Shown: positions 12,039-50,335 of the stretch, in pieces
How positions within the stretch are numbered: position 1 is the stretch's first letter
Layout: every line of letters starts with the position of its first letter
Origin: Antedon mediterranea
Lineage: Eukaryota; Animalia; Echinodermata
NCBI RefSeq assembly: GCF_964355755.1
Contig: NC_092674.1
Location: forward strand, 11,780,001 to 11,844,000
Direction of reading: 5' to 3'
Length of the DNA stretch: 64,000 nt
Program-made: the position numbers and the translations under genes
Notes under the pieces: generated by a model
What the model was told of the DNA's origin: nothing
The model's database searches: none
What the model saw: the letters and a program-made list of their open reading frames with translations, nothing else

Positions 12039-12273
12039 TGTTTACAATTAAATGGAAAGTGATTAAATATTCCTCCACTAAGAACGCCGCTTATGGGCGT
12101 TGTAGTCTTTGTCTAGATGAAAAGCTATGTATTCTAAATGCAAACAAAACAAATTTGTTAAACAAAAGGTCTGAACTGATTTAAAAATTTCGTCATAACA
12201 AGAAAATGTACATACCACATGACTAAAGCCTTATAACACCTCGAGATACGGTATTGTTATACGGTATTGTTCA

Positions 12274-12316: not shown

Positions 12317-12471
12317 GCCCGTGTTTCTATCTAATTCATAAATATACATATATATATAATAAACAAATCAGGCAAAGAACATTAATTCTAAACCGCCCGG
12401 TGATATACTGAAATTTAATTAAGTAATTTGAAACGATAAAGATGAGGAAATCTGTGAGAATGAGAAAAAGT

Positions 12472-12543
12472 CGCCCCAACCGAGACTCGAACTCGGACCG
12501 CCTGCTTGATATGCAGATGTTCTAACCATTAGACCACAGGGGC
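12472..12543 (-). tRNA. tRNA-like cloverleaf, anticodon ATC (repeat-borne, probably non-translational)
   Basis: 72-nt cloverleaf with A and B boxes followed by TTTTT; one acceptor-stem mismatch. Confidence 0.6.
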
Positions 12544-12836
12544 TTTCATGGTATTGTTCGAACTCGATTGGATAGCGACTCTTTAACATTCTCGGCGTGG
12601 TACGGCGGAACAGCACTAGTCCTCAGTTGTACGCACGCGCACCAGAGATCAAATTGATAAGCCCTCATCTTACAGTATTTTTATTCCCGAGGCGGGATCT
12701 CCGAAGAGATACTTTTTATATATATAAACAAATCAGGCAAAGAACATTAATTCTAAACCGCCCGGTGATGTACTGAAATTTAATTAATTAATTTAAAACG
12801 ATAAAGATGAGGAAATCTGTGAGAATGAGAAAAATT

Positions 12837-12908
12837 CGACCCAACCGAGACTCGAACTCGGACCGCCTGCTTGATATGCAGATGTTCTAACCATTAGACC
12901 ACTGGGGC
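12837..12908 (-). tRNA. tRNA-like cloverleaf, anticodon ATC
   Basis: Copy of the same core with two substitutions. Confidence 0.55.
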
Positions 12909-13201
12909 TTTTATGGTATTGTTCGAACTCAATTGGATAGCGACTCTTTAACATTCTTGGCGTGGTACGGCGGAACAGCACTAGTCCTCAGTTGTACGCA
13001 TGCGCACCAGAAATCAAATTGATAAGCCCTCATCTTACAGTATTTTTATTCCCGAGGCGGGATCTCCGAAGAGATACTTTTTATATATATAAACAAATCA
13101 GGCAAAGAACATTAATTCTAAACCGCCCGGTGATATACTGAAATTTAATTAATTAATTTGAAACGATAAAGATGAGGAAATCTGTGAGAATGAGAAAAAT
13201 T

Positions 13202-13273
13202 CGACCCAACCGAGACTCGAACTCAGACCGCCTGCTTGATATGCAGATGTGCTAATCATTAGACCACTGCGGT
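13202..13273 (-). pseudogene. Degenerate tRNA-like copy, anticodon ATC
   Basis: Several stem-breaking substitutions relative to the consensus. Confidence 0.55.
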
Positions 13274-13566
13274 TTTCATGGTATTGTTTGAACTCGATTG
13301 GATAGTGACTCTTTAACATTCTCGGCGTGGTACGGCGGAACAGCACTAGTTCTCAGTTGTACGCACGCGCACCAAAGATCAAATTGATACGCCCTCATCT
13401 TACAGTATTTTTATTCCCGAGGCGGGATCTCCGAAGAGATACTTTTTATATATATAAACAAATCAGGCAAAAAAAATTAATTCTAAACCGCCCGGTGATA
13501 TACTGAAATTTAATTAATTAATTTGAAACGATAAAGATGAGGAAATCTGTGAGAATGAGAAAAAGT

Positions 13567-13638
13567 CGCCCCAACCGAGACTCGAACTCGGACCGCCTGC
13601 TTGATATGCAGATGTCCTAACCATTAGACCACTGGGGC
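13567..13638 (-). tRNA. tRNA-like cloverleaf, anticodon ATC (consensus copy)
   Basis: GCCCCAG TG GTCT AATGGTTA GGAC A TCTGC ATATCAA GCAGG CGGT CCGAG TTCGAGT CTCGG TTGGGGC G: all four stems pair, and a T5 terminator follows. Confidence 0.65.
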
Positions 13639-13719
13639 TTTCATGGTATTGTTCGAACTCGATTGGATAGCGACTCTTTAACATTCTTGGCGTGGTACGG
13701 CGGAACAGCACTAATACTG

Positions 13720-14538
13720 TATATATAAAAAAAATCAAGATCAAATAAGTTAAAACTGCCTCAATATAGATTTATTTTTACGACATGTTTCGGGCATAGC
13801 CCATCATCAGGTGAAAAGAATTGTAACCAAAGGATAACATATATAAGTCACAACATTACATAATAAAACAAATCAGCCAATCAAAGATGTTAACAAAAAA
13901 AGGCATAAAGGCACGCCTCCAAAAGCTATGGGGTACAAAGCAGGAATGGTTGCTTATATAGCAGGAAATTTAAAACAAAGACAAAAGCTTCAAGTGTAAA
14001 TAATTGTTAATATGTGAAAATTTCTGGCAAAATTAATGTTTAAAGGATCTAAATTGTACATTTATGCCGGTAGGGGCAAGAGTGCCAAGCCTTACAATTA
14101 TTCTTTCTTCTATAATTCTACGAGATGTCTCAGAACCATTATATACTTTAACACCAGAAATTGTAATATCCGAAAGGGAATGCTTATTATTACAAAAATG
14201 GGTGGCTACAGGTAATCCGGGAGTCTTTAGTTTAATAGACCTTAAATGTTCTACAAACCTATCACCTAACCTGCGTTTAGTTTCACCAATATAAAGCATA
14301 TTACATTTAGTACACGAAATACAATAAACTAGATTTCTAGTGGTGCACGTTATACGATCTGTGATAACATAATTACCAGAAGGTCCTACTATTTGGTTTG
14401 AACATGAAACGTAATTACATGTCGAACATCTATTTCTATTACATTTGAATGTTCTAGTTGATTCATTACCTTTGTTTTGTAATTTAGATTTAACTAAAGT
14501 GTCTTTAATGCATTAAAGACACTTTAGTTAAATCTAAA
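13720..14538 (-). mobile_element. 5'-truncated Neptune-type Penelope-like element (Cys linker, GIY-YIG endonuclease, 3' region with hammerhead)
   Basis: Reads TFKCNRNRCSTC, then NLVYCISCTKCNMLYIGETKRRLGDRFVEH...PVATHF...LGTLAPTGIN, and ends at TATATA. Confidence 0.88.
13776..13817 (-). ncRNA. Minimal type I hammerhead ribozyme
   Basis: The reverse complement is TTTTCAC-CTGATGA-TGGGCTATGCCC-GAAA-CATG-TC-GTAAAA, with palindromic helix III (ACATGT) and a GUC triplet. Confidence 0.8.
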
Positions 14539-18607: not shown

Positions 18608-18729
18608 CTGTAATATAAATAATACATTATCATTGTTCTTTTACACTTCAGTGAACGTGCACGAAGTTCACACCAACATGGGTCGTAGTTGACGGTCTCG
18701 TGGACAGTGAACGTACGACGTAATGACCT

Positions 18730-25619: not shown

Positions 25620-27660
25620 TCTATATATACATTTACGTAAGGGCAAAATTCGGTAAGTCGTGCGTTATTTCTAGAATGTTTACTCCATGGTATATAAAGT
25701 TGGTTAGAATCTCGGTACTGATTTTAACCACCTGATGTAACCCTGTTTACTAATTAAATTGAGTTAGATAATTAGTTATTGACAATTAAAACGAATTTAG
25801 GTTCAACGATTTGCCCCAAATAGGGGTGTTTTCCGATCGTGGTATACACTGTCTAATAGATGTCCTCTTGAAAAATACCTGCACACAATAATACGAGGAG
25901 GCTTCGCATTTTCCTATCTCCTCCTACGAAAATTGTTATTAATAGCTGAAAACCGGTTGAACAGCTCGAGCACAGTATCATAATGTTGAAGAAAGGCCGA
26001 TTTTTAAAAAAAAATACTATTTTGATAGATTTAATATACGTTTATACAAATGTATTGATTTGCGATGAACGGAACATTCCAATCTCTCAGACTCCCTGTT
26101 TGTAGGTAAAGTTATGAGCCCTTGGTTTAACACAAGTAGCCAAATTTATGGGCCCTTGGAGAATAAACTTACAAAATATAAACGTTGTAGTGGTGTATCG
26201 TCACATGTACTTTACTATTTTAATCAACTATAACAGGGACAGTTTAAAAAAAGTATTAAATCGTAAATGTTTTACTGTGTTTAGTGTTATATTTAAAACA
26301 ATATTTAGTTGAATATTATACCCCAAATAAAGATGCCTCCCCTCCCCCTAAAAAACCTTTTGAACAATAAATGCCCGGGGCGTTTAATCGGATACACATG
26401 GCAAGCTACTTCTAGCATTCTGAAAAGAACTGTTGAGCTTGACGTTTCTATCAAAATGTTCTTGGGGACAGCAATAACTAGTACTTGAAATTGAAACAAT
26501 TTAAAGTATCAGTTATTGCATAACATTACTGTCTAAGGATAAGTTATGTAGAGATATGTTTTTTGTTTAAAACATTAGTAATAGTATTTCTGTTCATCTT
26601 TTAACCACATTTTCTATTACAATGAATGTAAATATGTATATTTCGAACACTTTGATACCAAATTTAAGTTTCTACGACCAGTACTCACAGAGATATGAAG
26701 ATGCCATGATATGTGGGTCAAAGGTCAGAAATGAAATTTCTGATCATTTTTGACTAAAATGTCCCATTAGATTGAATATGAAAGCATGCCTTCTGAACAT
26801 TTTGTGACTAAAATTGACTTGCTGCGACGAGTGGTTGCTGAGATACAAGTATCTATTTATATTTGTTCATATAACCCTTGACCCTGACCCTTTGACCTTT
26901 TGTAACATTTTTAAAAATGTGCAACAAATAACAAAATGTTCATTTCAAACAATTTAAGACCAAATTCAATTGTCTAGGATCAGTAGTTACGAATATACAT
27001 ACATGCCCTGGGGTGTGGGTCAAAGATCAGAAATGGCATTTCCGGTAATTTTTTACTAAAATTTCCCATTAAACTGAATATAAATGTATACCTTTTGATC
27101 AATTTGAGACCAAAATTACCTCGCTGTGACCAGTAGTTGTCGAGATTTAAGGACCTATTTGTGTTTAGTTTGATAACCTTTCACCCTGACCTTTTGACCT
27201 TTCGCCACATTTTCAAAATGTGTAACCAAGCCATTAATGATTGTTTGACCATCCTAAACCAATTTCTGAAGTCAAATTCTCTGGACCTCAAAGTGCATAC
27301 GAAAGTTGATCTAGCTACTAGAGTATAAAGAATATATTTAAAAATTGTTCTTCCCATCCTCTTCCCCATCCCTCAACTCTAACGTTATATACAAAACACA
27401 AATTGGGTTTGTTTAAATGAGTTCAAATAACAAATTTGGACTCATTTTTATAAGACAAGTTTTTCCTTCGGAAGTAGGCCTAAATCCCATAGTGCTAATT
27501 TTATTTGACTACATTAATCATTGTGTCTATTTATTCGTTTCTGTAAACTACAATGTATTTATAGTCCTGCGGTACGTACATTTGAAATTGCCAGTTTTTT
27601 TACCCTGAAATTACTGTGTATTCGAGAACCATCTGTGGACACGACTCGCTCGCGTACTAG
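25620..27660 (+). mobile_element. Non-autonomous Helitron family A, first unit of a tandem pair, with an internal insertion at about 26.3-27.3 kb
   Basis: A|TCTATATATACATTTACG...CGCGTACTAG; collinear with the copies at 9436 and 33692. Confidence 0.85.
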
Positions 27661-28648
27661 TCTATATATAATTCGGTAAATCGCGCCTTACTTCTAGAAT
27701 TCTAGAAATCGATGGTATAAAGTTGGTTCGTACTTTCAATACTGATTTTAACCACCTGATGTAACCCTGTTTACTATTAAATTGAGATAATTAGTTATTA
27801 ACAATTAAAACGAATTTAGGTTCAACGATTTGCCCCAAATGGGGTGTTTTCCGCTCGTGGTATAGGCCTACACTGTCTAATGGATGTCCATCATGAAAAA
27901 TATCCGCACACAATAAACGAGGATGCTTCGCATTTACCTATCTCCTTCGATAATTGTTTTATAATAACTGAAAACCGATTGAACTGCTCGAGTACAGCAT
28001 AATAATGTTGAAGAAAGGTCAATTTTTTGAAAAAAAAAAAATATTTCGATAGATTTAATATACGTGTATACAAATGTATTTATTTTCGATGAATGGATCA
28101 TTCCAATCTCTCAGTCTCAGAATAATTACTAGGTTTTGACACAAGTAGGTAAATTTAGAGGTCCTTGTGGATAAACTTAAAAACCTTTAGATATAGTGTT
28201 GCAATACTTTGACAATATACTGTAAATTAATACGTATTAACCATTGGTCGCCATTTGAATCGCAAATTTCTTACTGTGAGTGCGGGTACTGCTAGATATA
28301 TAAAACACATACAAATACACTGTATTACTGTGAGTGTAGGTAGGCCATGTTGTTAGTCGCATTTACCTATCGCCTTCCACGATAATAGCTGAAACCAGTT
28401 AAACAGCTCGAGTACAGCATCATAATGTTGAAGACAGGCCGATTTTCTTTAAAAATACTATTTTGATGGATTTAATAATATACGTTTATACAAATGTATT
28501 GAATCGCAGATTGGGTTTATTTGGTTTTTGGACTCATTTTGTGAAAAGTTTCTCTTTCGGAAGTAATTCCCACTAGGGGAATGTTTACGCTGAAATTATT
28601 GTGTATTCGAGAACCATCTGTGGGCTAGACCCCCGCTAGACCATCTAG
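27661..28648 (+). mobile_element. Non-autonomous Helitron family A, second unit of the tandem pair
   Basis: Starts TCTATATATA immediately after the CTAG of the previous copy and ends CCATCTAG|T. Confidence 0.85.
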
Positions 28649-31745: not shown

Positions 31746-33691
31746 TTAAGCTTAATGTTAACTTTTGGTAACTCATAATACTTTAATAATGACATAAAGT
31801 TCTTCTTTGTGATACATTTGATAAGTTGTGTAAAAGATCTTATGACATGGCTATTACTAACGTAACATATATTATGATAATTGTTTAATTTGCCAAAGAG
31901 AAAGTGTATTTGAACTTACCAACATGTTACGTTTACAGAAACAATTGGTGTAGGAATACATTTCAACGGTCTGAGAAAAATATGATGGAAATCAAAATTA
32001 ATGTATACATTATATTAACAAGAAAAATTTATATGTGAATAAGAATGAAAATCTCCTCAACCGAAAATCAAACCCGGACCTTTCTCGATAACAATACAAA
32101 CATCCTACCAATAATTGTAAAGTTTCAGTAGGCCAATTGATTAACAACTCAATAATAAACTACACTTAATTCAAAAGTTTCTTACCAATTTTTTTTCAAC
32201 CAAGTCTTATATTCACTAACAGTAATAATGTAGCATCCAGCAATCTAAGAAAAACAACTTCTTAATTTGTTTCAAAATAGTTTATTTATCCTGATCTATC
32301 AATCATAGTGAAATCTGTATGTGTAACATGTCGTGGTTCAATGAATAAAGGTGCGTATAATAATTTGTACACATCGGTAATTGACTATGGTGGCATGGTT
32401 GTTGTTCAGTCTACTGTGACCGTGTATTCAAATGGAGGAAGAATAACTAACTGTAATGTATTGCGTGGGTGTAGTACGGTAGCTAAATGCATTGAACTTA
32501 ATTGCTATGCAAAACTTTATCTTGAACTCTATTCACCTGTATCCACTCTATCGTTTCGCAACAATGAATTATCCCGGAACAATACATAAACTTCTCAAGG
32601 TTAGTTAAAAGCCATTAAACACTTATCCAAAATATCCTCTGAACGCTCTGGGTCAAAAGTACACGACCTTCTGGTCAGCTTAATCTAAAACAATCAATAC
32701 CAACAATTAAAAAAATTACACAATAAAAAAAATAATAATTTACTCGTGATAACCTTTAATATAACATCCGCGAGCCCATTAAACAAGTTTTATTGTACTA
32801 ATCATATACTCAATGAAATAAAAATAAAATGAATTGTTTATTTATTCATTCATTCATTTCTTTTTTTCGGATAGTGTACAAAAAAATTATTTCACAATAT
32901 CCTAAAATATCCATTTATGAATGGTTTGAATCAGACTACAGTCATAAATTCTGTTCTTAAAACTATGCATATAGTTCCTCCAATATTCATAGAATGAGGA
33001 AACGTTTTGTTACAAACATCATGCTTGCGATATTATATCTAGGCAATTTCAGTAGCTTACGTAACCTGCAAATTCTAAATGAGTTCACAGTACCTTCACT
33101 GAACTTATAGCGTCATACAGTATACATTAAAGAAATACATTTTAAATAACTGTCATTTCACTTCTGACAACGGAACATTTGGAGAATGTCCTAAATAATG
33201 TATTAGCTCTGATACACTGAGCTTGATACTGTGTCTTCATATCATCATCATTCATAGAGAGTTACAAATCACATGAGCCAAGTATGTTATACAGTCAACT
33301 GATGAGAGGTACCGTACGAAAGGAGGCCAACACACACTGTGTTCGGAAAAAACCCGTCATATGGGTCGTCGATTTGTTCATTTATTCAATTATGTTCAAT
33401 TATTGCGTATTTTCCATAATTTAAGGCCAAATCATAATTTTGCTTAGGCCTAGGCCTACAGTTTTGTTTTTCCGTTCTCTCTGCAAATTTCCTACAATTA
33501 ATTTATTTTTTTTATATTGATTATTTATTGTACAGTTTATAGTGGATAAATGAAATGAATTTTGGAAATTTTTAATTAACTTCTGACTTTATTTAGCATT
33601 TAATTATAAACAATACAATGTAACGTTTTCCTCAATATTTATAGCAGCAGCTTCATATTTTTTGTCTATTTTTTAAATCATTAATTGACAA

Positions 33692-34960
33692 TCTATATAT
33701 AAATTTACGTAAGGGCAAAATTCGGTAAATCGCGCCTTACTTCTAGAATTTTTACTCGATGGTATAATATAAAGTTGGTTCGTACTTTCGGTACTGATTT
33801 TAACCACCTGATGTAACCATGTTTACTAATTTAATTGAGTTAGATAATTAGTTATTGACGATTAAAACGAATTTAGGTTCAACGATTTGCCCCAAATAGG
33901 GGTGTTTTCCGATCGTGGTATACACTGTCTAATAGATGTCCAACTTGAAAATACCCGCACACAATAATACGAGGACGATTCGCATTTTCCTATCTCCTCC
34001 TACGATAATTGTTTTTAATAGCTGAAAACCGGTTGAACTACTCGAGTACAGCATCATAATGTTGAAGACAGGCCGATTTTCTTTAAACAATACTATTTTG
34101 ATAGATTTAATTTACGTTTTTACAAATGTATTGATTTGCGATGAATGGAACATTCCAATCTCTCAGTCTGCCAGTTTGGTTTAACACAAGTAGGTAAATT
34201 TATGAGCCCTTGGAGAATAAACTTGCAATACTTTGACAATACAGTACTGCAAATACGTCCTATTAACCATTTTTGGTCGTCATTTGAATCGAACATTTCT
34301 TACTGTGAATAGATGTAAAAAAATATATACAAACACTTCTTACTGTGAATACTGTTAGATGTAAACAAATATATACAAATAAACTTTATTACTGTGATTA
34401 TGGGTAGGCTCTACTGTTAGATGTATAAACACGTAATATACAAATAAACTTTATTACTGACAGTTGCTTCTCAATGTTTGCATTAATTAATAATTACAAA
34501 AAATATAAACGTCGTAGTGGTGTATCGTTACATGTACTTTACTATTTCAATCGACTATGACAGTGACAGTTTTAACAAAGTATTAAATCGCAAATGTTTT
34601 ACTATATTTAGTCACCGTTAGTGGTATATTATTTATAGGCCTATACAAAATGAAAACAATATTTCGTTACTGACGTGGATAAAGAATATATTTAAAAAGT
34701 GTTCCTCTGTGTACCTATCCTCTTTCCCATTCCTCAACCCTAATTGGGTTTCTTTAAATGAATAAACAATTTGGACTCATTTTGTGGTAAATTTCTCTTT
34801 CGGAAGTAATTCCTAGGGTGCTAATTTTGGTTGACTACATAAATCATTGTGTCTACTTATTCGTTTCTGTAAAGGACAATGTATTATATCCTGCGGTACG
34901 TGCATTTGAAATCGCCAGATTTTTTACCCTGAAATTACTGTGTATTCGAGAACCATCCAG
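33692..34960 (+). mobile_element. Non-autonomous Helitron family A, first unit of a tandem pair, lacking the 3' hairpin
   Basis: A|TCTATATATAAATTTACG ... GAGAACCATCCAG, fused directly to the next copy. Confidence 0.88.
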
Positions 34961-36157
34961 TCTATATATAAATTTACGTAAGGGCAAAATTCGGTAAATC
35001 GCGCGTTACTTCTAAAATGTTTACTCGATGGTATATAAAGTTGGTTCGTACTTTCGGTACTAATTTTAACCACCTGATGTAACCCTGTTTACTAATTAAA
35101 TTGAGTCAGATAATTAGTTATTGACAATTAAAACAAATTTAGGTTCAACGATTTGCCCCAAATAGAGGTGTTTACCGATCGTGGTATACACTGTCTAATA
35201 CATGTCCATCGTAAAAAATACCCGCATACAATAATACGAGGATGCTTCGCATTTTCCTATCTCCTCCTACGATAACTGTTTTTAATGGCTGAAAACCGGT
35301 TGAACAGCTCAAGTACAGCATCATAATTTTGAAGACAGGCCGACTTTCTTTAAAAAATACTATTTCGATAGATTTAATATACGTTTATAGAAATGTATTG
35401 ATTTGCAATGAATGGAACATTCCAAATCATTGCATACCTCCATGGTTTAACACAAGTAGGTAAATTTATAGACCCTTGGAGAATAAACAGAAATAGTATT
35501 GAAATACTATACAATACTGCAAATAGGTATTAACCACTTTTGATCGCCATTTGAATCAAAAGTGTGTTGGTACTGTTAGATATAATATAAATAAATATAC
35601 TAATAAACGTTATCACTGTGAGTGTGTGTAGCCCCTACTTTTAGATTATAAACACATAATAATATATACTTTATTACTGTCAGTTGTTTCTCAACGTTTG
35701 TATTAATTAATAATTACAAAAATAGAAACGTATTAGTGGTCTTTAAATGTACTTTACTATTTCAATCGACCATGAGACAGTGACAGTTTTAATAAAGTAT
35801 TAAATCGGAAATGTTTTACTCTATTTAGTGGTATATTATTTATAGGCCTATATAAAAAAAATATTTCGTTACTGATTGGATAATAAAGAAATATAAAGAA
35901 TAATTTAACAAAATTGGGTTTGTTTAAACGAGTCAAATAACAAATTTCGACTCATTTTGTGACAAGTTTCTAGGTGCTAATTTTGGTTGACTACATAAAT
36001 CATTGTGTCTATTTCTGTAAACGACAATGTTTTATAGTCCTGCCGTACGTACATTTGAAATCGCCAGTTTTTTTTTACGCTAAAATTACTATGTATTCGA
36101 GAACCATCTGTGGGCACGAACTAGATGGTACGTGAGCGAAGCGAGCGTACAATCTAG
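34961..36157 (+). mobile_element. Non-autonomous Helitron family A, second unit with an intact 3' hairpin
   Basis: TCTATATATAAATTTACG ... CTAGATGGTACGTGAGCGAAGCGAGCGTACAATCTAG|T. Confidence 0.9.
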
Positions 36158-36799
36158 TAATAATTAATTTACAATAACAGTAATATTATATTTATTAGGC
36201 TACCGTACCAGAAGTCCTCCATTGACAAAAAAAAAGTTAGTTAGTGTGTTTTATATTATTATATAATTATTATATATATTATTATTAACATTTAGGATGG
36301 GGGTGGGGAGGGGGTCCGGACCCAGAACTTGATAGGCTTAGTCATAACGTAGTTAGAGTTGCATGCCATTTTATCACTGTTGAATGTTTTGATGTTAGCC
36401 TAATTCGTAAAATTGGTAAAAGAAGTATTGCTGGAGGCAACGAATTTAAGGACCTTCACAACCAAAATATTTCATTGTAACAAACTTTTAAATGGAACGC
36501 TACAAAAATAATCCTCCGCTTAATCACTGCATAAATACCAAATAACCAGACAGGAACGTATCTTTGTTACATTTACTATCAATCCATTTTCATATCACGC
36601 AATCCATTTTTCAACAATGTAGTATAATAATAATATTTCGATTGAATAGTGATGGGATTAGTTTCAGTTTTGATTTTGAACAAACCATTGGTAATTTACG
36701 GAAAATCCAGAATACTATTAGCATTTTTCAAAGCACGCTCTTTGAGCTTGTGCACTCTTTGTGTTTATAATCAGTGTACCATGTCCCGCATAACTGTAA

Positions 36800-37227
36800 C
36801 TCGAGAGATACTTTTATGATACACTGAAAATTATTTAATTAATTATTGAAACGATAAAGATGAGGAAATCTGTGAGAATGAGAAAAAGTCGCCCCAACCG
36901 AGACTCGAACTCGGACCGTCTGCTTGATATGCAGTTGCCCTAACCATTAGACCACTGGGACTTTCATGGTATTGTTCTTTAACATTCTCGGCGTGGTACG
37001 GTTGGAACACAACTAGTCCTCAGTTGTACGCACGCGCACCAGAGATCAAATTGATACGCCCTCATCTATAATTCAGTATATTTATTCACTAAGCGGGATC
37101 GCGAGAGATACTTATATATATATATAAACACAACAGGTATAGAAATAAATTCCAAACCGCCCGGTGATACACTGAAAATTATTTAATTAATTTTTGAAAC
37201 GATAAAGATGAGGAAATCTGTGAGAAT
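36800..37227 (-). repeat. Diverged subfamily of the tRNA-containing unit (about 1.3 copies; tRNA core at 36890-36961)
   Basis: Same architecture, with variant flanks (acacaacaggtatagaaataaattcc, gatcgcgagagatac). Confidence 0.85.
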
Positions 37228-37250
37228 TTTTGTATCTCCACAGCACGCTC

Positions 37251-37253
<3 letters not shown>

Positions 37254-37325
<72 letters not shown>
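37254..37325. repeat. (TA)n microsatellite
   Basis: About 35 perfect TA units. Confidence 0.95.
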
Positions 37326-37328
<3 letters not shown>

Positions 37329-37508
37329 CCAAAGGCAAATTACTGAAAAAAATGACAATGCTGTGGGTATCAGTGGCTGGATCTCAATGGAGATACAAAA
37401 ATAAAAAGCGAAAATCTAAATCAAAACGATAAAGTAAACAGCCAGAAAAGTTAGCAGAGCTTCGGGCAACACTAGCCCTTCATCAGTGCAAGTGAAGGAA
37501 TTTGGATA
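37326..37508 (-). mobile_element. Neptune-type PLE 3' terminal (pLTR) fragment with a hammerhead at 37451-37491
   Basis: Reverse complement of 44793-44960. The core reads CTGATGA-AGGGCTAGTGTTGCCC-GAA-GCTC, with one A missing. Confidence 0.8.
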
Positions 37509-37730
37509 ATATAAACAAATCAGGCAAAGTACATTAATTCTAAACCGCCCAGTGATATACTGAAATTTAATTAATTAATTTGAAACGATAAAGATGAGGA
37601 AATCTGTGAGAATGAGAAAAAGTCGCCTTTCATGATATTGTTCGTACTCGATTGGATAGCGACTCTTTAACATTCTCGGCGTGGTATAGTACGGCGGAAC
37701 AGCACTAGTCCTCAGTTGTATATATATATA

Positions 37731-38106
37731 CTTCTCAAAGAAAACCACTGGGAATTACTACTTAAAACCACAAACCTTTTGGACTTAACATTAGGAACAT
37801 ACTCCCAGATCGGTAAAATTATTCCATTGACTACCAAAATTTAAGTTTCAATATTAATCACCATTTAAGCTGTTTTTTAGTCTCATTCCAAAATTGTTTA
37901 TATCTCTACCAAGCTACCTTCTTTGTTTTCTACTCTTATTCAGACTCCACCCTGGCTCCCTTTGTTATATTTCTTTTATTCCTGTCCACCCAGGCAGCAC
38001 TTGCCAGCTTTATACTATGAAGTTATCCAAATTCCTTAACTTGCACGGATGAAGGGCTAGTTTTGCCCGAAAGCTCTGCTAACTTTTCTGGCTGTTTACT
38101 TTATCG

Positions 38107-38110
<4 letters not shown>
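37731..38110 (+). mobile_element. Neptune-type PLE 3' fragment: GIY-YIG C-terminus, 3' UTR and a mutated hammerhead (38041-38082)
   Basis: Translates as LLKENHWELLLKTTN, then frameshifted FGLNIRN. The core is CGGATGA-AGGGCTAGTTTTGCCC-GAAA-GCTC, and TA tracts flank both sides. Confidence 0.75.
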
Positions 38111-38157
<47 letters not shown>

Positions 38158-38172
38158 CAGCATATATATATA
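38111..38172. repeat. (TA)n microsatellite
   Basis: Direct observation. Confidence 0.95.
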
Positions 38173-38282
38173 AACAAATCCGGCACAGAACATTAATTCT
38201 AAACCGCCCGGTGATATACTGAAATTTAATTAATTAATTTGAAACGATAAAGATGAGGAAATCTGTGAGAATGAGAAAAAGT

Positions 38283-38354
38283 CGCCCCAACCGAGACTCG
38301 AACTCGGACCGCCTGCTTGATATGCAGATGTCCTAACCATTAGACCACTGGGGC
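38283..38354 (-). tRNA. tRNA-like cloverleaf, anticodon ATC (consensus copy)
   Basis: Same sequence as 13567-13638. Confidence 0.65.
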
Positions 38355-38646
38355 TTTCATGGTATTGTTCGAACTCGATTGGATAGCGACTCTTTAACAT
38401 TCTCGGCGTGGTACGGCGGAACAGCACTAGTCCTCAGTTGTACACACGCGCAACAGAGATCAAATTGATACGCCCTCATCTTACAGTATTTTTATTCACG
38501 AGGCGGGATCTCCGAAGAGATGCTTTTATATATATAAACACAGTAGGCAAAGAACATTAATTCTAAACCGCCCGGTGATATACTGAAATTTAATTAATTA
38601 ATTTGAAACGATAAAGATGAGGTAATCTGTGAGAATGAGAAAAAGT

Positions 38647-38718
38647 CGCCCCAACCGAGACTCGAACTCGGACCGCCTGCTTGATACGCAGATGTCCTAG
38701 CCATTAGACCACTGGGGC
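38647..38718 (-). tRNA. tRNA-like cloverleaf, anticodon ATC
   Basis: Two loop substitutions; stems intact. Confidence 0.6.
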
Positions 38719-39009
38719 TTTCATGGTATTGTTCGAACTCGATTGGATAGCGACTCTTTAACATTCTCGGCGTGGCACGGCGGAACAGCACTAGTCCTCA
38801 GTTGTAAACACGCGCAACAGAGTTCAAATTGATACGCCCTCATCTTACAGTATTTTTATTCACGAGGCGGGATCTCGAAGAGATACTTTTATATATATAA
38901 ACACAGTAGGCAAAGAACATTAATTTTAAACCGCCCGGTGATATACTGAAATTTAATTAATTAATTTGAAACGATAAAGATGAGGAAATCTGTGAGAATG
39001 AGAAAAAGT

Positions 39010-39081
39010 CGCCCCAACCGAGACTCGAACTCGGACCGCCTGCTTGATATGCAGATGTCCTAACCATTAGACCACTGGGGC
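39010..39081 (-). tRNA. tRNA-like cloverleaf, anticodon ATC (consensus copy)
   Basis: Same sequence as the consensus. Confidence 0.65.
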
Positions 39082-39395
39082 TTTCATGGTATTGTTCAAA
39101 CTCGATTGGATAGCGACTCTTTAACATTCTCGGCGTGGTACGGCGGAACAGCACTAGTCCTCAGTTGTACACACGCGCAACAGAGATCAAATTGATACGC
39201 CCTCATCTTACAGTATTTTTATTCACGAGGCGGGATCTCCGAAGAGATACTTTTATATATATAAACACAGTAGGCAAAGAACATTAATTCTAAACCACCC
39301 GGTGATATACTGAAATTTAATTAATTAATTTGAAACGATAAAGATGAGGAAATCTTATCGTTTCAAATTAATTAATTAAATTTAATTTTAATTAA

Positions 39396-39467
39396 GACCC
39401 AGTGGTCTAACGGTTAGGACATCTGCATATCAAGCAGGCGGTCCGAGTTCGAGTCTCGGTTGGGGCG
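39396..39467 (+). tRNA. tRNA-like cloverleaf, anticodon ATC
   Basis: GACCCAGTGGTCTAACGG...TTGGGGCG followed by TTTTT. Confidence 0.55.
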
Positions 39468-39816
39468 AATTTTTCTCATTCTCACAGATTTCCTCATCTT
39501 TATCGTTTCAAATTAATTAATTAAATTTCAGTATATTACCGGGCGGTTTAGAATTAATGTTCTATGCCTGATTTGCCTACTGTGTTTATATATATAAAAG
39601 TATCTATTCGGAGATCCCGCCTCGTGAAAAAAAATACTGTAAGATGAGGGCGTATCAATTTGATCTCTGTTGCGCGTGTGTACAACTGAGGACTAGTGCT
39701 GTTCCGCCGTACCACGCCGAGAATGTTAAAGAGTCGCTATTCAATCGAGTTTGAACAATACCATGAAAGCCCCAGTGGTCTAATGGTTAGGACATCTGCA
39801 TATCAAGCAGGCGGTC

Positions 39817-41915
39817 TGTTGAACCCACAAATGTGAAAACGCCCACAAATGTGAAAACAACCACAAATGTGAAAACGCATCACCCACAAATGTGAAAACA
39901 ACCACAAATGTGAAAACGCATCACCCACAAATGTGAAAACAACCACAAATGTGAAAACGCATCAACCACAAATGTGAAAACAGCGCCCACAAATGTGAAA
40001 ACGATCATCGCCCACAAATGTGATAACGCCCACAAATGTAAAAACAAGAGAGACTTTTTCGCCCACAAATGTAAAAAAATCAGATCAAATTTTATGCTAG
40101 ATTCAGACAAACATTATATCATGATTGTATTGTGTTGTTTGTTCACGATACGTCTGTTAGGGTCGTGGTTAACACGTTGGATTATTATCATTTTCTGCTC
40201 GTGCGCGCGATATTTGCACGTTAACTCGTTTGTTTAATGAACGTAATAGTTCAAGACGATATTTGTTATTTGCTGCGCGCGTGCACGATACTTCAAGGTC
40301 AAGGCCATGTTATATCATTGTTGCTTCTACTGTGTGGTTAGTTATAAGTCGATGTTCGATATTTTTTTTTTGCGCGCACACGATACAACAAGGTCAAGGT
40401 TAAATTGCTACTTGTATGTAGTGTGTGGTTATTAACTCGTTGGCTTACTGTTATGTACGTATAGTTCCAAGTCGATGCTCGATTCGATGTTTTTGGGCGC
40501 GTACACGATACTACAAGGTCATATATCATTGCTGCTTGAAGTGCAGTTGGGCTTACTATATTAGTATTATGTACGTACAGTATTATAGCTCCAAGTCGAT
40601 GCTCGGTGTACACGATACTACAAGATCAATGCTATACTCGTCGTTCAGTTATTGCAGTAGTTCCTAATGTTCAATTTTTTTACAAAACTATCACCACAAG
40701 ATAATAATACAAGAGCTAGAGCAAGAACAACTAATAAAAGAATATTTCTTTATTTTAGAGCGATAAACAAATTGTAACATAGAATAATACCGTAACACCA
40801 ATATCCAACCAAACATAATACACGATACGATAGTATCAAACTTGTCACGAACATGTATTCTATAAAACATACTATGAAATCTATAACAATTATACTAATG
40901 GACAAAACTTCCTACTATAGGCCTACTACTATTTACATTCGTGGTTTAATCTGATGCTTATTGTTTAATTTGTATATCTATTTTTAGCGGATAATTATAA
41001 AGATATACGGAGAATAATATTACCTATTGAATGCATTACTTAATTTAACTGATTTACTATCAAACGTATATTCGACAATTTTTATGTATAATATAATTAT
41101 AAGTAAATAAGTCAACGTACAAGGTATAACGGATTGTTAATGAGGAACAAACTGGCTTCATGAATTACCTAACAAAATATTTAAGGAGGAGTTGCAATGC
41201 GATTAAATAATGTTATCTACTAATAGTAGGCTTACACTTGATTGGAGATGCCTATAACACTAATTGTATGAGCATTAGAAGTCATAACAGTAAGCCAACG
41301 AGTTAATAACCACACACTACATACAAGTAGCAATTTAACCTTGACCTTGTTGTATCGTGTCGTGCGCGCAAAAAAACATCGAATCGAGCATCGACTTGGA
41401 ACTATACGTACATAACAGTAAGCCAACGAGTTAATAACCACACACTACATACAAGTAGCAATTTAACCTTGACCTTGTTGTATCGTGTGCGCGCAAAAAA
41501 AAAATTATAATAATCCAACGCGTTAACCACGACCCTAACAGACGTATCGTGAACAAACAATTATTGAAACAACTCAATACAATCATGATATAATGTAGTA
41601 CCTCGATCAAAATTGTTTGAGTCTATAGCATTAAATTTCATCTGATTTTTTTTTTTTTACATTTGTGGCCGAAAAATTCTCATTTTTTTTTACATTTGTG
41701 GGCGTTATCACATTTGTGGGCGATGATCGTTTTCACATTTGTGGGCGCTGTTTATTACATTTGTGGTTGATGCGTTTTCACATTTGTGGTTGTTTTCACA
41801 TTTGTGGGTGATGCGTTTTCACATTTGTGGTTGTTTTCACATTTGTGGGTGATGCGTTTTCACATTTGTGGTTGTTTTCACATTTGTGGGCGTTTTTACA
41901 TTTGTGGGTTCAACA
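39817..41915. mobile_element. Foldback-type non-autonomous DNA transposon with TGT...ACA ends and a 5-bp TSD (Ginger2/TDD-like, tentative)
   Basis: CGGTC|TGTTGAACCCACAAATGTG ... ACATTTGTGGGTTCAACA|CGGTC. The imperfect inverted arms are about 600 bp and carry about 12 subterminal CCACAAATGT repeats each. Confidence 0.88.
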
Positions 41916-42235
41916 CGGTCCGAGTTCGAGTCTCGGTTGGGGCGACTTTTTCTCATTCTCACAGATTTCCTCATCTTTATCGTTTCAAATTAATTAATTA
42001 AATTTCAGTATATCACCGGGCGGTTTAGAATTAATGTTCTTTGCCTACTGTGTTTATATATATAAAAGTATCTCTTCGGAGATCCCACCTCGTGAATAAA
42101 AATACTGTAAGATGAGGGCTATCAATTTGATCTCTGTTGCGCGTGTGTACAACTGAGGACTAGTGCTGTTCCGCCGTACCACGCCGAGAATGTTAAATAG
42201 TCGCTATCCAATCGAGTTCGAACAATACCATGAAA

Positions 42236-42307
42236 GCCCCAGTGGTCTAATGGTTAGGACATCTGCATATCAAGCAGGCGGTCCGAGTTCGAGTCTCGGT
42301 TGGGGTG
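42236..42307 (+). tRNA. tRNA-like cloverleaf, anticodon ATC
   Basis: Consensus except for a G-U first pair; TTTTT follows. Confidence 0.62.
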
Positions 42308-42414
42308 ACTTTTTCTCATTCTCACAGATTTCCTCATCTTTATCGTTTCAAATTAATTAATTAAATTTCAGTATATCACCGGGCGATTTAGAATTAATGT
42401 TCTGTGCCTGATGT

Positions 42415-42416
<2 letters not shown>

Positions 42417-42476
<60 letters not shown>
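42417..42476. repeat. (TA)n microsatellite
   Basis: Direct observation. Confidence 0.95.
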
Positions 42477-42478
<2 letters not shown>

Positions 42479-42495
42479 AATTAATTAATTAATTT

Positions 42496-44442
42496 GTGGA
42501 GCTTTGTGAATTTGAAGAGCTTTGTGAATTTGAAGAAAAAATGTTAAATCTTGTCAGAAATGTTCAATTCAAGAATTGCAACAGCGAATTCCAAGATAAA
42601 TTGCTAGAAGATGTCAACAAAATCAAAAAAGACAACAAGCTAATAATACCCGCCGACAAAACAACGAATTTTTATCGAGTCGATACCCCAGTATACAACA
42701 ATCTACTCAACAACAATGTTACAAAATCTTATAAGAAGACGAACAAAAGCACAACTTCTAAATTAGCCAGAGATGAATATAAAACCGCCGCAAAACTAAA
42801 ATTGGAAAGCAGAATCGAGCGTTTAGCCGAGAAGGAAGCTTTTATAACACTAAAAGACCACAAACCCAACTTCGAGAACAACCCGACATGTAGATTGATC
42901 AACCCATCGAAATCAGAAATTGGCATCGTAAGTAAACAAATCCTTGAAAGAATAAATAAGAAAATAATAGCGTCTACAGGATTAAATCAATGGAAGAACA
43001 CTAATTCTGTTATCGAATGGTATAAGAACATTCAAAACAAGGATAAGCACTCGTTTATTTGCTTCGACATAGTTGATTTCTACCCGTCAATAACCAGTGA
43101 CCTACTTAAAAAAGCCCTTGAATTCGCCTCCGAGTTTGAAGCAATCTCCGATGAAGAAACAAATATTATTATCCAAGCGAAAAAGTCACTCCTTTTCCAT
43201 GATAACGCTACATGGTGCAAAAAAGGAACTGAAAACCAACCTGTGTTTGACGTCACAATGGGAAGCTTTGATGGTGCTGAAACCTGTGAAATCGTAGGTA
43301 CATATCTTTTGTCGCAACTGTCTAACAAATATGGCAACCAAATTGGTCTATACCGCGACGATGGCCTAGCCGCGTTTCGCGAATCAGCCAAAACGATTGA
43401 GCTAATCAAGAAAGATATTTGTAAGGTTTTTCAGGAGAACAACCTCAAGCTAACAATTGAAGCTAACAAGAAAATAGTCAATTATTTGGATGTAACGTTC
43501 GACCTAAGGACAGGGATCTTCCGACCTTTCACTAAGCCTAATAACAAACCAACCTACGTGCACCATGACAGCAACCATCCTCCATCTATTATCCGAAACA
43601 TCCCACTTGCTATAAATAGACGCCTTTCTGACATCTCATCAGACAAAGATACATTTCATGCATCTGCACCCCTATACCAGGAAGCCCTCAAAGAAAGTGG
43701 ATACAATCATCAACTTGAGTTCAATGCTGAACAGCAGAAGCCCAAAAAATCACGTACCAGAAACATAATTTGGTTTAACCCACCATTCAGCAAAAACGTA
43801 GCAACCAACATCGGCCACAAGTTTTTAGCTATAGTAGAAGATTGTTTTCCTGCCGGCAACAAGCTCAGAAAAATATTTAACAAAAATATCTTGAAACTAA
43901 GCTATAGTTGCATGCCCAGCGTAGACAAAGTAATTAACGCACACAACAAATATGTGATAGCCAAAGAAAAGTCTACTGAAACCAACGCGAAAACAAGCGG
44001 ATGTAACTGCCGCAATCCCAATGAATGCCCGCTCCCAAGTAACTGCCTAACAAAAGGTGTAGTTTACCAAGCTACAGTAAAGAGAGAAGATTCATCAAAA
44101 GAAGAAACATATGTCGGACTAACTGAAAACCAATTTAAAACAAGATACAGAAACCATACGTCTTCATTCCGGAACGAAAAACTAAGAAATGCAACGGAAC
44201 TCAGTAAATATATATGGACACTTAAAGACTCTAAAACAAATTACTCAATTAAATGGAAAATTATAAAGAAATGCAAACCTTACTCAAATATTAACAAAAG
44301 ATGTAATTTATGTATATATGAAAAGTATGTTATTATATGTCAACCAGAGCTATGCTCACTGAACCGTAAGAACGAGTTAGTCTCTACTTGTAGACATAGG
44401 AAAAAATTCTTACTAAATTGCAGATCCAAACAGTTTATCTAA
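42496..44442 (+). CDS. Penelope-like element ORF: RT plus C-terminal GIY-YIG endonuclease (probably Hydra clade; uninterrupted but likely 5'-truncated)
   Basis: RT motifs FDIVDFYPSI, MGSFDGAETC and GLYRDDGL. Further motifs SNHPP and RNIIWFNPPFS, linker CNCRNPNEC (CxCx5C), GVVY...TYVGLT...FKTRYRNH, IKWKII, CNLC and the terminal CRH. Confidence 0.93.
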   Translation: MELCEFEELCEFEEKMLNLVRNVQFKNCNSEFQDKLLEDVNKIKKDNKLIIPADKTTNFYRVDTPVYNNLLNNNVTKSYKKTNKSTTSKLARDEYKTAAKLKLESRIERLAEKEAFITLKDHKPNFENNPTCRLINPSKSEIGIVSKQILERINKKIIASTGLNQWKNTNSVIEWYKNIQNKDKHSFICFDIVDFYPSITSDLLKKALEFASEFEAISDEETNIIIQAKKSLLFHDNATWCKKGTENQPVFDVTMGSFDGAETCEIVGTYLLSQLSNKYGNQIGLYRDDGLAAFRESAKTIELIKKDICKVFQENNLKLTIEANKKIVNYLDVTFDLRTGIFRPFTKPNNKPTYVHHDSNHPPSIIRNIPLAINRRLSDISSDKDTFHASAPLYQEALKESGYNHQLEFNAEQQKPKKSRTRNIIWFNPPFSKNVATNIGHKFLAIVEDCFPAGNKLRKIFNKNILKLSYSCMPSVDKVINAHNKYVIAKEKSTETNAKTSGCNCRNPNECPLPSNCLTKGVVYQATVKREDSSKEETYVGLTENQFKTRYRNHTSSFRNEKLRNATELSKYIWTLKDSKTNYSIKWKIIKKCKPYSNINKRCNLCIYEKYVIICQPELCSLNRKNELVSTCRHRKKFLLNCRSKQFI

Positions 44443-44526
44443 AACAATAGGCTATTGTATACGACTTCCCGATGACTCACTTCTATTAAGCACTATGAGA
44501 CAACTGTGTCACTTATGTTTTATATT

Positions 44527-44582
44527 TCACCTGAAGAGTGCGGCCAGCTACATGCTGGTCGTACGAAACAAATTTGTAGTGA
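44527..44582 (+). ncRNA. Type I hammerhead ribozyme (CUGAAGA core, 11-bp helix II)
   Basis: TCAC-CTGAAGA-GTGCGGCCAGC-TACAT-GCTGGTCGTAC-GAAA-CAAATTTG-TA-GTGA, with palindromic helix III ACAAATTTGT. Cleavage is predicted after 44578. Confidence 0.88.
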
Positions 44583-44682
44583 TTAAAACAATGAAGTAAC
44601 CAAGTTTTCTGCTGTTATTTTATTTATTTATGCTCTACCTTGGTATTGAGCACTCTATCCAAACGGTCTGAAAATCTCAACC

Positions 44683-45059
<377 letters not shown>

Positions 45060-49206: not shown

Positions 49207-49819
49207 CTGTTAAATTATAATACATAACATTATCTATAAGATTATTTTGAAGGTTGATTGTAAGCAACCTTTGAAATTCAAACGAGATAGGTTTTATTTT
49301 TTTTAAGTAATTTTTAATAAATAAAATAATAAATAAAGCAGTAATATGAAAACGTATGATCGATAATAGATTATCTTACTACACGATTAATTAGAAATAA
49401 TTTAAAATAAGCCGATACCACAAAACAATAACAACAGGCCTATACCGAAAATGCACTGGTAAGACATTACATATAACCTGTTATATTAACCTGCGATTTT
49501 AACCCCAATAATAACAATCCCGGTAGTACTGAGCAAATTATTTCTAAAATCTACCAAAAACATAAAATTATGACGTGATCATTAGAATTAGATAATATAA
49601 GATCTACTGTATATATTAAAACAATTTTTTTTCGATTATGAAACACTAACACGGTCCTGATAACAAAACAAACACATATACCCACAAACCCCCAAATTCA
49701 AAGGAGTTTTTTGAGTTACAGGCCAACACCAATTAAATTAGTTTTGTTTTTAAGAAGCCTAATGTTTTTGTATTAAAGTATTGAAGTAAACGCACACATA
49801 AAATATGTTATTATGTTAC

Positions 49820-50247
49820 CTTGTATAACCAGTTTGGTTTTTAAAGAGGTCCTCGGCTAACACCATTCGGTCTGGTAGAGATGAGTATATTGGAACATCT
49901 TTGTAAATGTTTGCTAGAAGAAATGCGTAGCGGTATTCTTCATTGGTTAGCTTAGGAACCTGTTTGATTATATTCATCCAACTGATAATAATCATTTCTG
50001 TCCGTGTTTTTTTGTTTACAAGTACCTCTCGTAGCACACTCCTTTTGCTTAGACCTTTGTTAATGTTCCGATGGCCAACGACTCGTATAGTCGTGCGAGT
50101 GCCAACATCATGTTCAAAGCCAACCACAGAGGCTAGATTCATTCGTATGACACAGTGGTGTTGATCAATCTCTCTTCCAGCGTTTGATCCTAATAAATGA
50201 CCAGAGCTTGCCACAACAGCACAGTCATTGCACGTAAGATGGAGTTT
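49820..50247 (-). CDS. ST6GALNAC: ST6GalNAc-type sialyltransferase exon, sialylmotif L
   Basis: [53 protein letters not shown], with AG/GT boundaries. Confidence 0.92.
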
Positions 50248-50335
50248 CTTAAAAAATTATTATTTATAATAAATTGTTTATAAAAAGAAAATGCATTTAT
50301 GTTTTTAATAAATTATTTCAGATGAAATAACAAGC

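What the first reader, a model, noticed from the sequence alone, without database searches (positions are those of the whole stretch)
36800..42420. Candidate new element class: tandem tRNA-bearing 365-bp units that behave like Penelope-mobilised cargo
Seen: a non-coding ~365-bp unit made of a leader, a 72-nt cloverleaf, T5 and an AT-rich tail. It occurs about 12 times in two loci (12.3-13.7 kb and 36.8-42.4 kb), in head-to-tail runs separated by TATATA. The 3' ends sit in (TA)n and the 5' ends are variably truncated. There is no poly(A) tail or TSD, and at both loci a Hydra-type and a Neptune-type PLE are immediate neighbours. Established: PLEs form tandem and inverted insertions, several clades prefer microsatellites, and hammerhead retrozymes of similar unit length are tandem non-autonomous elements thought to use PLE enzymes. 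Typical tRNA-SINEs have the tRNA at the 5' end, are dispersed and depend on LINEs. Inference: this is a retrozyme-like element in which an internal tRNA replaces the ribozyme, acting as a Pol III promoter and possibly providing RNase P/Z processing sites.
Basis: partly seen in the sequence, partly recalled or inferred. Interest (0 to 1): 0.9.

Follow-up and report, generated by a model that had tools for sequence, protein, structure and literature searches.

The report
tRNA-bearing Penelope-type repeat in feather star
A 365-base non-coding repeat carrying a tRNA look-alike sits in short head-to-tail and mirror-image arrays at TA microsatellites in a feather-star genome; it is likely copied through RNA by a Penelope-type jumping-gene enzyme, with the tRNA part probably acting as its promoter, which would make it a Penelope counterpart of a SINE.

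Summary
Fifteen whole or partial copies of a 364-366-bp unit form five runs. Four of five 3' ends lie in TA; the five 5' ends are all different. Two runs meet head-to-head through a fold-back filler, with (TA)n outside both: the Penelope-like (PLE) insertion pattern. The host is a crinoid. Public runs show an abundant family with many flanks.

There is no hammerhead, so it is not a retrozyme. The tRNA part has intact A/B boxes but an unexpected anticodon (Asp-ATC) and is no better conserved than its flanks. The leader is an inverted copy of the tRNA's 3' half and is predicted to mask the cloverleaf, which argues against RNase P/Z processing of the whole unit. PLE neighbours prove nothing about the partner, because all share the TA target; a hairpin shared with one PLE end is only suggestive.

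Best reading: a PLE-mobilised non-autonomous element with a likely Pol III promoter. I found no such element in ten literature searches. This scan noted similar tRNA-bearing repeats in another genome (AI notes, unchecked). Expression, partner and empty sites are untested.

The parts
12351..13713 (-). Run A: three full units plus one 5'-truncated unit; 3' end in the TA tail of an old Hydra-type PLE
36800..37227 (-). Run D: older subfamily (7-10% from young copies); one partial unit, one near-full unit lacking its last ~40 nt, and a 17-nt start of a third; 3' end not in TA
37509..37720 (-). Run E: one 5'-truncated unit with the tRNA deleted across the acceptor stem (leader joined to the last 4-5 tRNA bases)
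38163..39355 (-). Run B: three full units plus a 5'-truncated piece; left arm of a head-to-head pair; 3' end in TA
39355..39393 (+). Inversion junction: 29-nt fold-back copy of the unit's own tail plus about 10 nt of AT filler; no TA run
   Evidence: (100% match, unit 278-306)
39394..42423 (+). Run C: right arm; starts within 3 nt of the tRNA 5' end, one unit split by the TIR element, one full unit; 3' end in (TA)29
38283..38354 (-). Example tRNA-like module (72 nt, anticodon ATC, A at position 32, intact A and B boxes)
38276..38280 (-). T5, the only run of 4 or more T in the sense strand of the unit
38367..38407 (-). Anti-tRNA segment of the leader: inverted copy of T arm, acceptor 3' strand and trailer, predicted to mask the cloverleaf
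38502..38523 (-). Hairpin at the unit start; in the common form 17 of 22 nt match the 3' end of a PLE (37375-37396, 44889-44910)
39817..41915 (.). Later, unrelated insertion: 2,099-bp TIR element with a 5-bp target duplication, inside a tRNA module
37326..37509 (-). Neighbour: hammerhead-bearing PLE 3' end, 3' end in (TA)36, joined to the 3' TATA of run E
37731..38110 (+). Neighbour: 5'-truncated stub of the same PLE family, ending in (TA)23
42493..44685 (+). Neighbour: Hydra-type PLE, open 649-aa ORF truncated at its 5' end, hammerhead at 44531, 3' end in (AT)54
13728..14512 (-). Neighbour: Neptune/Nematis-type PLE stub (GIY-YIG with Cx4CxxC linker, hammerhead at 13810), 3' end in TA next to the 5' end of run A

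Best explanation
The 365-bp unit is an abundant non-coding repeat inserted at TA microsatellites, likely copied through RNA by the enzyme of a Penelope-like element (PLE), with its tRNA-like module likely serving as an internal RNA polymerase III promoter and predicted to be masked in the unit RNA. Shown: unit anatomy, fixed 3' ends and variable 5' ends, head-to-head arms, TA target, intact A/B boxes. Inferred steps: (1) Pol III starts at the tRNA and sometimes reads through the single T5, giving RNAs longer than one unit whose two ends repeat the tRNA part. (2) The antisense leader pairs with the T arm and acceptor strand, so such RNA escapes tRNA processing. (3) A TA-targeting PLE enzyme nicks (TA)n and reverse-transcribes from the RNA's internal UA run, on one or both strands. 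(4) Long templates or jumps between RNAs give 2-4 unit arrays, and two cDNAs joined at their growing ends give head-to-head pairs. Local duplication probably adds units afterwards. The partner family is not identified. My odds: PLE-type mobilisation about 0.7; with the promoter role as well, about 0.5.
For: Anatomy matches the published PLE pattern (Craig 2021): partial tandems, variable 5' truncation (5 different ends), an inverted 5'-truncated copy at the 5' end (runs B/C, joined by a templated filler without TA) and TA insertion (4 of 5 runs). A purified PLE protein nicks AT-rich DNA, extends both strands and starts inside its RNA, without needing hammerhead cleavage (Frangieh 2024). Hammerhead-free non-autonomous PLE derivatives with head-to-tail copies exist. 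Abundance and dispersal: 9,971 and 7,425 contigs of two runs lie on one unit; in these runs 47 and 48 contigs continue past the 3' TA into flanks with only 0.64 and 0.60 consensus agreement; a 2.64-Mb assembly holds a 330-bp contig of the unit. Each insertion carries its own alleles (run A versus runs B/C), and the outer units of both arms share a tail allele absent from the five inner ones. A and B boxes are intact; the rod fold has z -5.4 (0 of 100 shuffles); acceptor-pair probability is 0.0 in 4 of 4 young copies. One of five 5' ends falls at the tRNA start (chance about 0.09). An open Hydra-type ORF lies in the window.
Against: No significant overall similarity to any of the three local PLE 3' ends (49 and 75 of 500 shuffles reach the score for the two copies of the best one; 467 and 426 of 500 for the others; 30-44 of 300 with long gaps). 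The shared hairpin is reached by 5 of 200 shuffles, was picked after looking, and is not in the predicted fold of the PLE end. T5 directly after the tRNA should end most Pol III transcripts (established knowledge). Run D's 3' end is not in TA. The rod has 0 of 69 pairs with a compensatory change among 10 copies, so it may be a by-product of an inverted origin. In the older copy D2, which lacks 22 nt of the anti-tRNA segment, the masking nearly vanishes (1.3 kcal/mol). The tRNA part is not more conserved than its flanks.
Confidence: 0.5

Rival explanations
1. PLE-copied, but the tRNA is a passenger. The unit is a fossil head-to-head insertion of a tRNA-derived sequence between two TA runs; it is transcribed by read-through from neighbours and copied whole because it carries a UA priming run.
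For: The leader (unit 24-164) aligns in order with the reverse complement of the 3' half and leaves the last ~36 nt unmatched (14 of 1000 shuffles), like an inverted PLE pair with a one-sided 30-40-bp tail. T5 blocks Pol III; the tRNA is not preferentially conserved; one copy lost it.
Against: A and B boxes are intact in the majority sequence, no variant at 5% or more is listed in the anticodon loop in the two deep runs, and one 5' end lies at the tRNA start.
Confidence: 0.23
2. A tRNA-SINE or SINE-derived satellite moved by a microsatellite-targeting LINE, with arrays built by local unequal exchange.
For: 5' truncation and fixed 3' ends fit any target-primed retrotransposon. Tandem and palindromic SINE arrays occur in bivalves and SINE-derived satellites in reptiles (abstract). 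Neighbouring units in run A share alleles as a local duplication would give (A1/A2 two, A2/A3 two).
Against: The tRNA is internal and followed at once by T5. There is no poly(A). The only match near the window's LINE is weak and on the opposite strand (E 2.6). The head-to-head pair has TA outside both arms and a templated filler at the centre.
Confidence: 0.15
3. A non-autonomous rolling-circle element (Helentron/HINE-like) or MITE that captured a tRNA gene and forms tandems as DNA.
For: Read on the other strand, the unit ends in an inverted repeat, a short hairpin and Ts; an imperfect 11-bp inverted repeat links the two ends (sequence). Helitron-like tandems exist in this window.
Against: HINEs have 12-15-bp subTIRs 2-4 nt from the 5' end, defined ends and TT targets. 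Here the repeat is 9 of 11, lies about 31 nt inside, one end is never fixed and the target is TA.
Confidence: 0.07
4. An ordinary tRNA gene cluster that other elements landed in.
For: Full cloverleaf with canonical invariant bases, Rfam up to 57.9 bits, T5 terminator.
Against: Asp-ATC is among the anticodons unexpected in eukaryotes; position 32 is A; substitutions 2.07% in the tRNA versus 2.21% and 2.62% in the flanks; whole flanks are copied, truncated and inverted; many different flanks in public runs.
Confidence: 0.05

Closest known systems
Non-autonomous PLE derivatives such as MRC1 of Chlamys, and Naiad/Hydra insertion anatomy (Craig et al. 2021, PMC8557442; sections 6, 10, 11 and passages read)
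   Same: Non-coding, multicopy head-to-tail insertions, 5' truncation, inverted 5' copy, microsatellite target, no hammerhead needed.
   Different: Those generally share 3' sequence with an autonomous family; none is shown here. No tRNA module appeared in the parts I read (supplements not seen).
Animal non-LTR retrozymes (Cervera and de la Pena 2020, PMC7229834, passages; Li, Clavereau and Pollet 2026, 10.64898/2026.07.22.740005, parts 1-3 of 5)
   Same: Unit size, short tandems, predicted high self-pairing, proposed PLE dependence.
   Different: No hammerhead; RNase P/Z ends would not suit RtcB circularisation (established chemistry, recalled); mosaic arrays do not fit one monomer circle.
TRIMp3 elements Cassandra, Helenus, Ajax (Kojima 2024, PMC10886601, parts 1 and 4 of 6 and passages; Kalendar 2020, PMC7215508, abstract)
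   Same: Internal small-RNA-derived module, probably a Pol III promoter rather than a working RNA; Cassandra is transcribed from one module to the next and forms tandem arrays.
   Different: Those have two LTRs, PBS, PPT and 4-5-bp TSDs and depend on LTR retrotransposons; this unit repeats directly across a TA spacer.
tRNA-SINEs, tandem SINEs and SINE-derived satellites (PMC11481361, passages; PMC10702118, abstract)
   Same: tRNA-derived A/B boxes, high abundance, occasional tandem and palindromic arrays.
   Different: tRNA is internal, terminator-followed and masked; no LINE tail or TSD seen; TA targeting with PLE-type arms.
HINE/DINE-1 non-autonomous Helentrons (Thomas 2014, PMC4067079, passages)
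   Same: Inverted repeat plus terminal hairpin and Ts on one strand.
   Different: Position and quality of the repeat, target and open 5' ends do not fit.

Membership tests
Animal non-LTR retrozyme | Type I hammerhead in each unit | tested here: not met
   No Rfam ribozyme hit at E up to 1; a core-motif scan found 5 candidate cores in the window, 4 in PLE ends and none in a unit
Animal non-LTR retrozyme | 150-450-bp tandem units, highly self-paired | tested here: met
   365 bp; z -5.4, 0 of 100 shuffles; prediction only, 0 of 69 pairs compensatory
Animal non-LTR retrozyme | Circular RNA in vivo | not testable with these tools
   Only contigs were available
Non-autonomous PLE derivative | Partial tandems with variable 5' truncation | tested here: met
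   5 of 5 runs truncated at different positions
Non-autonomous PLE derivative | Inverted 5'-truncated copy adjacent at the 5' end | tested here: met
   Runs B/C, 1 of 5 5' junctions examined as a pair
Non-autonomous PLE derivative | Insertion in microsatellites | tested here: met
   4 of 5 3' ends in TA; 47 and 48 contigs run on through TA
Non-autonomous PLE derivative | 3' similarity to an autonomous PLE | tested here: inconclusive
   17 of 22 nt hairpin, 5 of 200 shuffles; whole alignments not significant; only 3 local families could be compared
Non-autonomous PLE derivative | Optional one-sided 30-40-bp tail | tested here: inconclusive
   Last ~36 nt have no counterpart in the inverted leader; one junction lacks ~40 nt; no genome-wide count
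Non-autonomous PLE derivative | Mobilisation in trans by a PLE protein | not testable with these tools
   Needs an in vitro or cell assay
tRNA-SINE | tRNA head at the 5' end of the element | tested here: not met
   tRNA at unit 177-248; 1 of 5 5' ends at the tRNA start
tRNA-SINE | LINE-derived 3' tail or poly(A), TSD | tested here: inconclusive
   No poly(A); no match to the window's LINE; other LINEs of the genome not available; TSD unreadable in TA
TRIMp3 (Helenus) | Two LTRs around an internal PBS/PPT part, 4-5-bp TSD | tested here: not met
   Units abut across a TA spacer with no internal part; PBS and PPT were not searched separately
HINE/Helentron | 12-15-bp subTIRs 2-4 nt from the 5' end, defined ends, TT target | tested here: not met
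   9 of 11 repeat about 31 nt inside; open ends; TA target
Functional tRNA gene | Cloverleaf with A and B boxes and terminator | tested here: met
Functional tRNA gene | Expected anticodon and conservation above flanks | tested here: not met
   Asp-ATC flagged as unexpected; 15 of 723 versus 34 of 1541 and 35 of 1335 positions changed

The most novel reading that the evidence does not exclude
A third kind of small-RNA-derived parasite, beside SINEs (on LINEs) and TRIMp3 (on LTR elements): a Pol III-driven element that rides Penelope-like enzymes. It uses a captured tRNA gene as a promoter in DNA while an antisense copy hides the cloverleaf in RNA, and the tRNA repeated at both RNA ends lets the enzyme jump and build arrays with neither ribozyme nor circle. 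It may have arisen independently in several animal lineages.
Probability: 0.35. Interest if true: 0.82.

Novelty: new variant of a known kind. Interest (0 to 1): 0.6.

Why it matters
How PLE enzymes choose templates and build tandem and inverted insertions is still open (Craig 2021; Frangieh 2024). A 365-nt, ribozyme-free passenger would be a minimal template for that question and would show that hammerheads are dispensable for PLE-type short elements in animals. It would extend the Pol III-promoter strategy of SINEs and TRIMp3 to the third retrotransposon subclass. Practically, such repeats inflate tRNA gene counts with unexpected anticodons.

Tried and rejected
No whole genome is held, so array lengths, flanks and PLE co-occurrence could not be counted genome-wide. 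A read-laying step meant to give a single-copy depth reference and an empty site returned nothing; both questions stay open. Summed contig depth (about 1-3 million against 140-310 for single long pieces) is not a copy number, and its fall from tail to leader cannot rank parts; I use neither as evidence, and 'hundreds to thousands of copies' is my inference. No RNA holder listed. Of 20 holding runs in 8 studies I laid 4; the rest are not used, and the two deep runs may include the window's own source. Loose ends near the tRNA 3' end looked like diverged relatives, not RNase Z ends. Metagenome scan with a T-arm motif: 74 loci, 0 of 75 BLAST hits reach beyond the tRNA, 67 of the 69 overlapping tRNA calls are Leu-TAG. 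A unit-specific 22-mer found 0 matches in viral and prokaryote collections. The chance figure is circular (pattern built from both sequences) and was set aside for the control. An 11-nt match between unit tail and PLE end is not significant. A weak match at 7545-7587 was rejected (E 2.6). Hammerhead or other Rfam ribozyme in the unit: none. PLE adjacency as evidence: rejected.


Full report
HOST AND DATA. No genome is held for the window. An ORF at 17455-18783 is 93% identical to an Antedon mediterranea sulfotransferase, so the host is a feather star close to that species.

OBSERVATION. The unit is 364-366 bp. In tRNA sense it reads: TA spacer, an 18-nt hairpin, leader to position 176, tRNA-like module 177-248, T5 at 251-255, AT-rich tail. 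There are 15 pieces in five runs: A 12351-13713, D 36800-37227, E 37509-37720, B 38163-39355 (all minus) and C 39394-42423 (plus). Young copies differ by 2.6-4.8% on average between and within runs; the D copy differs by 7-10%. ARAGORN tRNA-Asp(ATC) and Rfam scores them 46-57.9 bits. The 3' ends of A, B, C and E lie in TA; D ends about 17 nt into the next unit in unique DNA. The five 5' ends lie near positions 86, 99, 172, 256 and 264. A 2,099-bp TIR element with a 5-bp duplication later split one unit of C.

INSERTION ANATOMY. B and C face each other 5' to 5'. Between them is a 29-nt fold-back copy of the unit's own tail plus about 10 nt of AT filler and no TA run; long TA runs lie outside both arms. 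The outer units of both arms share a tail allele that none of the five inner units has, and both arms lack two alleles that mark run A. I infer one event with two cDNA arms. Craig et al. 2021 (PMC8557442; sections 6, 10, 11 and passages) describe partial tandems, an adjacent inverted 5'-truncated copy, an optional 30-40-bp tail and (TA)n bias for PLEs, and hammerhead-free non-autonomous derivatives (MRC1). Frangieh et al. 2024 (PMC11167929; parts 1-3 of 4) show a PLE protein that nicks AT-rich DNA, extends both strands and starts inside its RNA without hammerhead cleavage. Arrays are mosaic: C3 differs from B3 at 10 of 133 tail positions while B2, B3, B4 and C2 differ at 1-2, and A2 shares two alleles with A1 and two with A3. 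This fits mixed templates plus local duplication better than one monomer circle.

ABUNDANCE. Twenty of 21 listed runs hold the unit, in 8 studies; I laid 4. In X1 and X2, 9,971 and 7,425 contigs lie on one unit. The loose-end class at the 3' TA has 47 and 48 contigs with low consensus agreement (0.64, 0.60), that is, many flanks. X11, only 2.64 Mb in all, holds a 330-bp contig of the unit ending in extra TA. Depth here is not a copy number; hundreds to thousands of copies is my inference. The unit is not confined to two loci. Empty sites and a single-copy calibration were not obtained.

NEIGHBOURS. The ORF at 42493-44442 has the DKT and CxCx5C motifs, a hammerhead and an (AT)n end that define Hydra PLEs. 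The stub at 13728-14512 has a Cx4CxxC linker and C-terminal GIY-YIG; Neptune and Nematis were not separated. An old Hydra copy, split by a Helitron-like insertion, ends in the TA that holds run A. All 18 TA runs of 10 bp or more in the window lie in the two clusters; 9 are the unit's own spacers. Adjacency therefore follows from a shared target. A hairpin at the unit start matches a PLE 3' end at 17 of 22 nt; 5 of 200 shuffles reach that in an any-window control. Whole alignments to three local PLE ends are not significant. The partner is unknown.

THE tRNA MODULE. A and B boxes are intact. Asp-ATC is listed among anticodons unexpected in eukaryotes (PMC8450103, passages), and position 32 is A. 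Among 12 young copies, substitutions are 15 of 723 in the tRNA, 34 of 1541 in the leader and 35 of 1335 in the tail: no extra conservation. The leader is a degenerate inverted copy of the 3' half (unit 24-164; 14 of 1000 shuffles; strongest at 124-161). The unit RNA is predicted to fold as a rod (z -5.4), 9-14 kcal/mol better than the other strand. Forcing the cloverleaf costs 20-23 kcal/mol in 4 of 4 young copies, linear or circular, but only 1.3 in D2, which lacks 22 nt of that segment. No compensatory change supports the rod (0 of 69 pairs, 10 copies). So RNase P/Z processing of whole-unit RNA is disfavoured, though a cloverleaf could form first on an RNA that starts at the tRNA. Two single observations hint at such RNA: C starts within 3 nt of the tRNA 5' end (chance about 0.09), and E lost the tRNA exactly across the acceptor stem.

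MECHANISM. Most likely the unit is a PLE passenger with a Pol III promoter. Read-through of the single T5 would give RNAs whose two ends repeat the tRNA part, as Cassandra is transcribed from one 5S module to the next (Kojima 2024, PMC10886601, parts 1 and 4 of 6). The enzyme would prime at the internal UA run on nicked (TA)n and extend on one or both strands, jumping between RNAs. Transcription, masking, priming and the partner are all inferred. The main rival keeps PLE copying but treats the tRNA as a passenger in a fossil inverted insertion. LINE/SINE-satellite, Helentron and true tRNA cluster readings fit worse (PMC11481361 passages; PMC10702118 and PMC7215508 abstracts; PMC4067079 passages).

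COMPARISON AND NOVELTY. It works like a non-autonomous PLE derivative and resembles a retrozyme in size and arrangement, but fails retrozyme membership for lack of a hammerhead (PMC7229834 passages; bioRxiv 10.64898/2026.07.22.740005 parts 1-3 of 5). Ten full-text searches listed no paper describing a tRNA-bearing PLE-dependent element; the one listed paper with the phrase 'non-autonomous Penelope' mentions no tRNA link in the passages read (10.1101/596502). Repbase, Dfam, subscription journals and the supplements of these papers were not seen and could hold such a family. This scan's own notes describe tRNA-bearing repeats of the same design in at least one other genome, two of them 406-407 bp, and a tRNA-headed inverted PLE stub; no sequence look-alike was found. 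These are unchecked AI notes and not support. One gave me the PMC7229834 identifier, and I saw another before testing the inverted-origin idea.

VERDICT. Real, abundant, PLE-type in anatomy; a new variant of a known kind. Interest 0.6. The boldest reading, a Pol III-driven SINE equivalent of Penelope elements with a self-masked tRNA, has probability about 0.35.

Noticed in passing
window 39817-41915: 2,099-bp non-coding element with 18-bp perfect terminal inverted repeats, 41-bp subterminal repeats and a 5-bp target duplication, inserted in a tRNA module; superfamily not determined.
   Followed up: partly
window 9434-12039, 25619-28630, 33690-36158: A roughly 1.3-kb Helitron-like family (label from recalled end motifs), partly in tandem; it splits an old Hydra-type PLE (8517-9422 and 12041-12214).
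   Followed up: partly
window 42477-42536: The Hydra-type copy begins with a 20-nt palindrome matching the unit's tail (18 of 19 nt, 0 of 500 shuffles) and an 18-bp duplication: a templated filler from the same AT palindrome as the B/C junction.
   Followed up: partly
window 44794-45019: Solo hammerhead-bearing PLE end between (AT)54 and (TA)18, followed by an inverted 24-nt stub of its own 3' end.
   Followed up: partly
window 32034-32089: Decayed single relic of the unit's tRNA 3' half and trailer (nhmmer E 0.006); diverged relatives also show as loose ends, so the family has older layers.
   Followed up: partly
window 3403-7526: Broken LINE with endonuclease, RT and zf-RVT pieces.
   Followed up: no
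window 17455-18783 (-) and 49816-50256 (-): Host exons: galactose-3-O-sulfotransferase (93% to an Antedon mediterranea protein) and a sialyltransferase-family exon.
   Followed up: partly
window 14725-15126: About 400-bp element with 50-bp inverted arms (98%), MITE-like.
   Followed up: no
window 37229-37253: 25-nt piece between the 5' end of run D and (TA)36 that starts like the PLE end but continues differently; origin unexplained.
   Followed up: no
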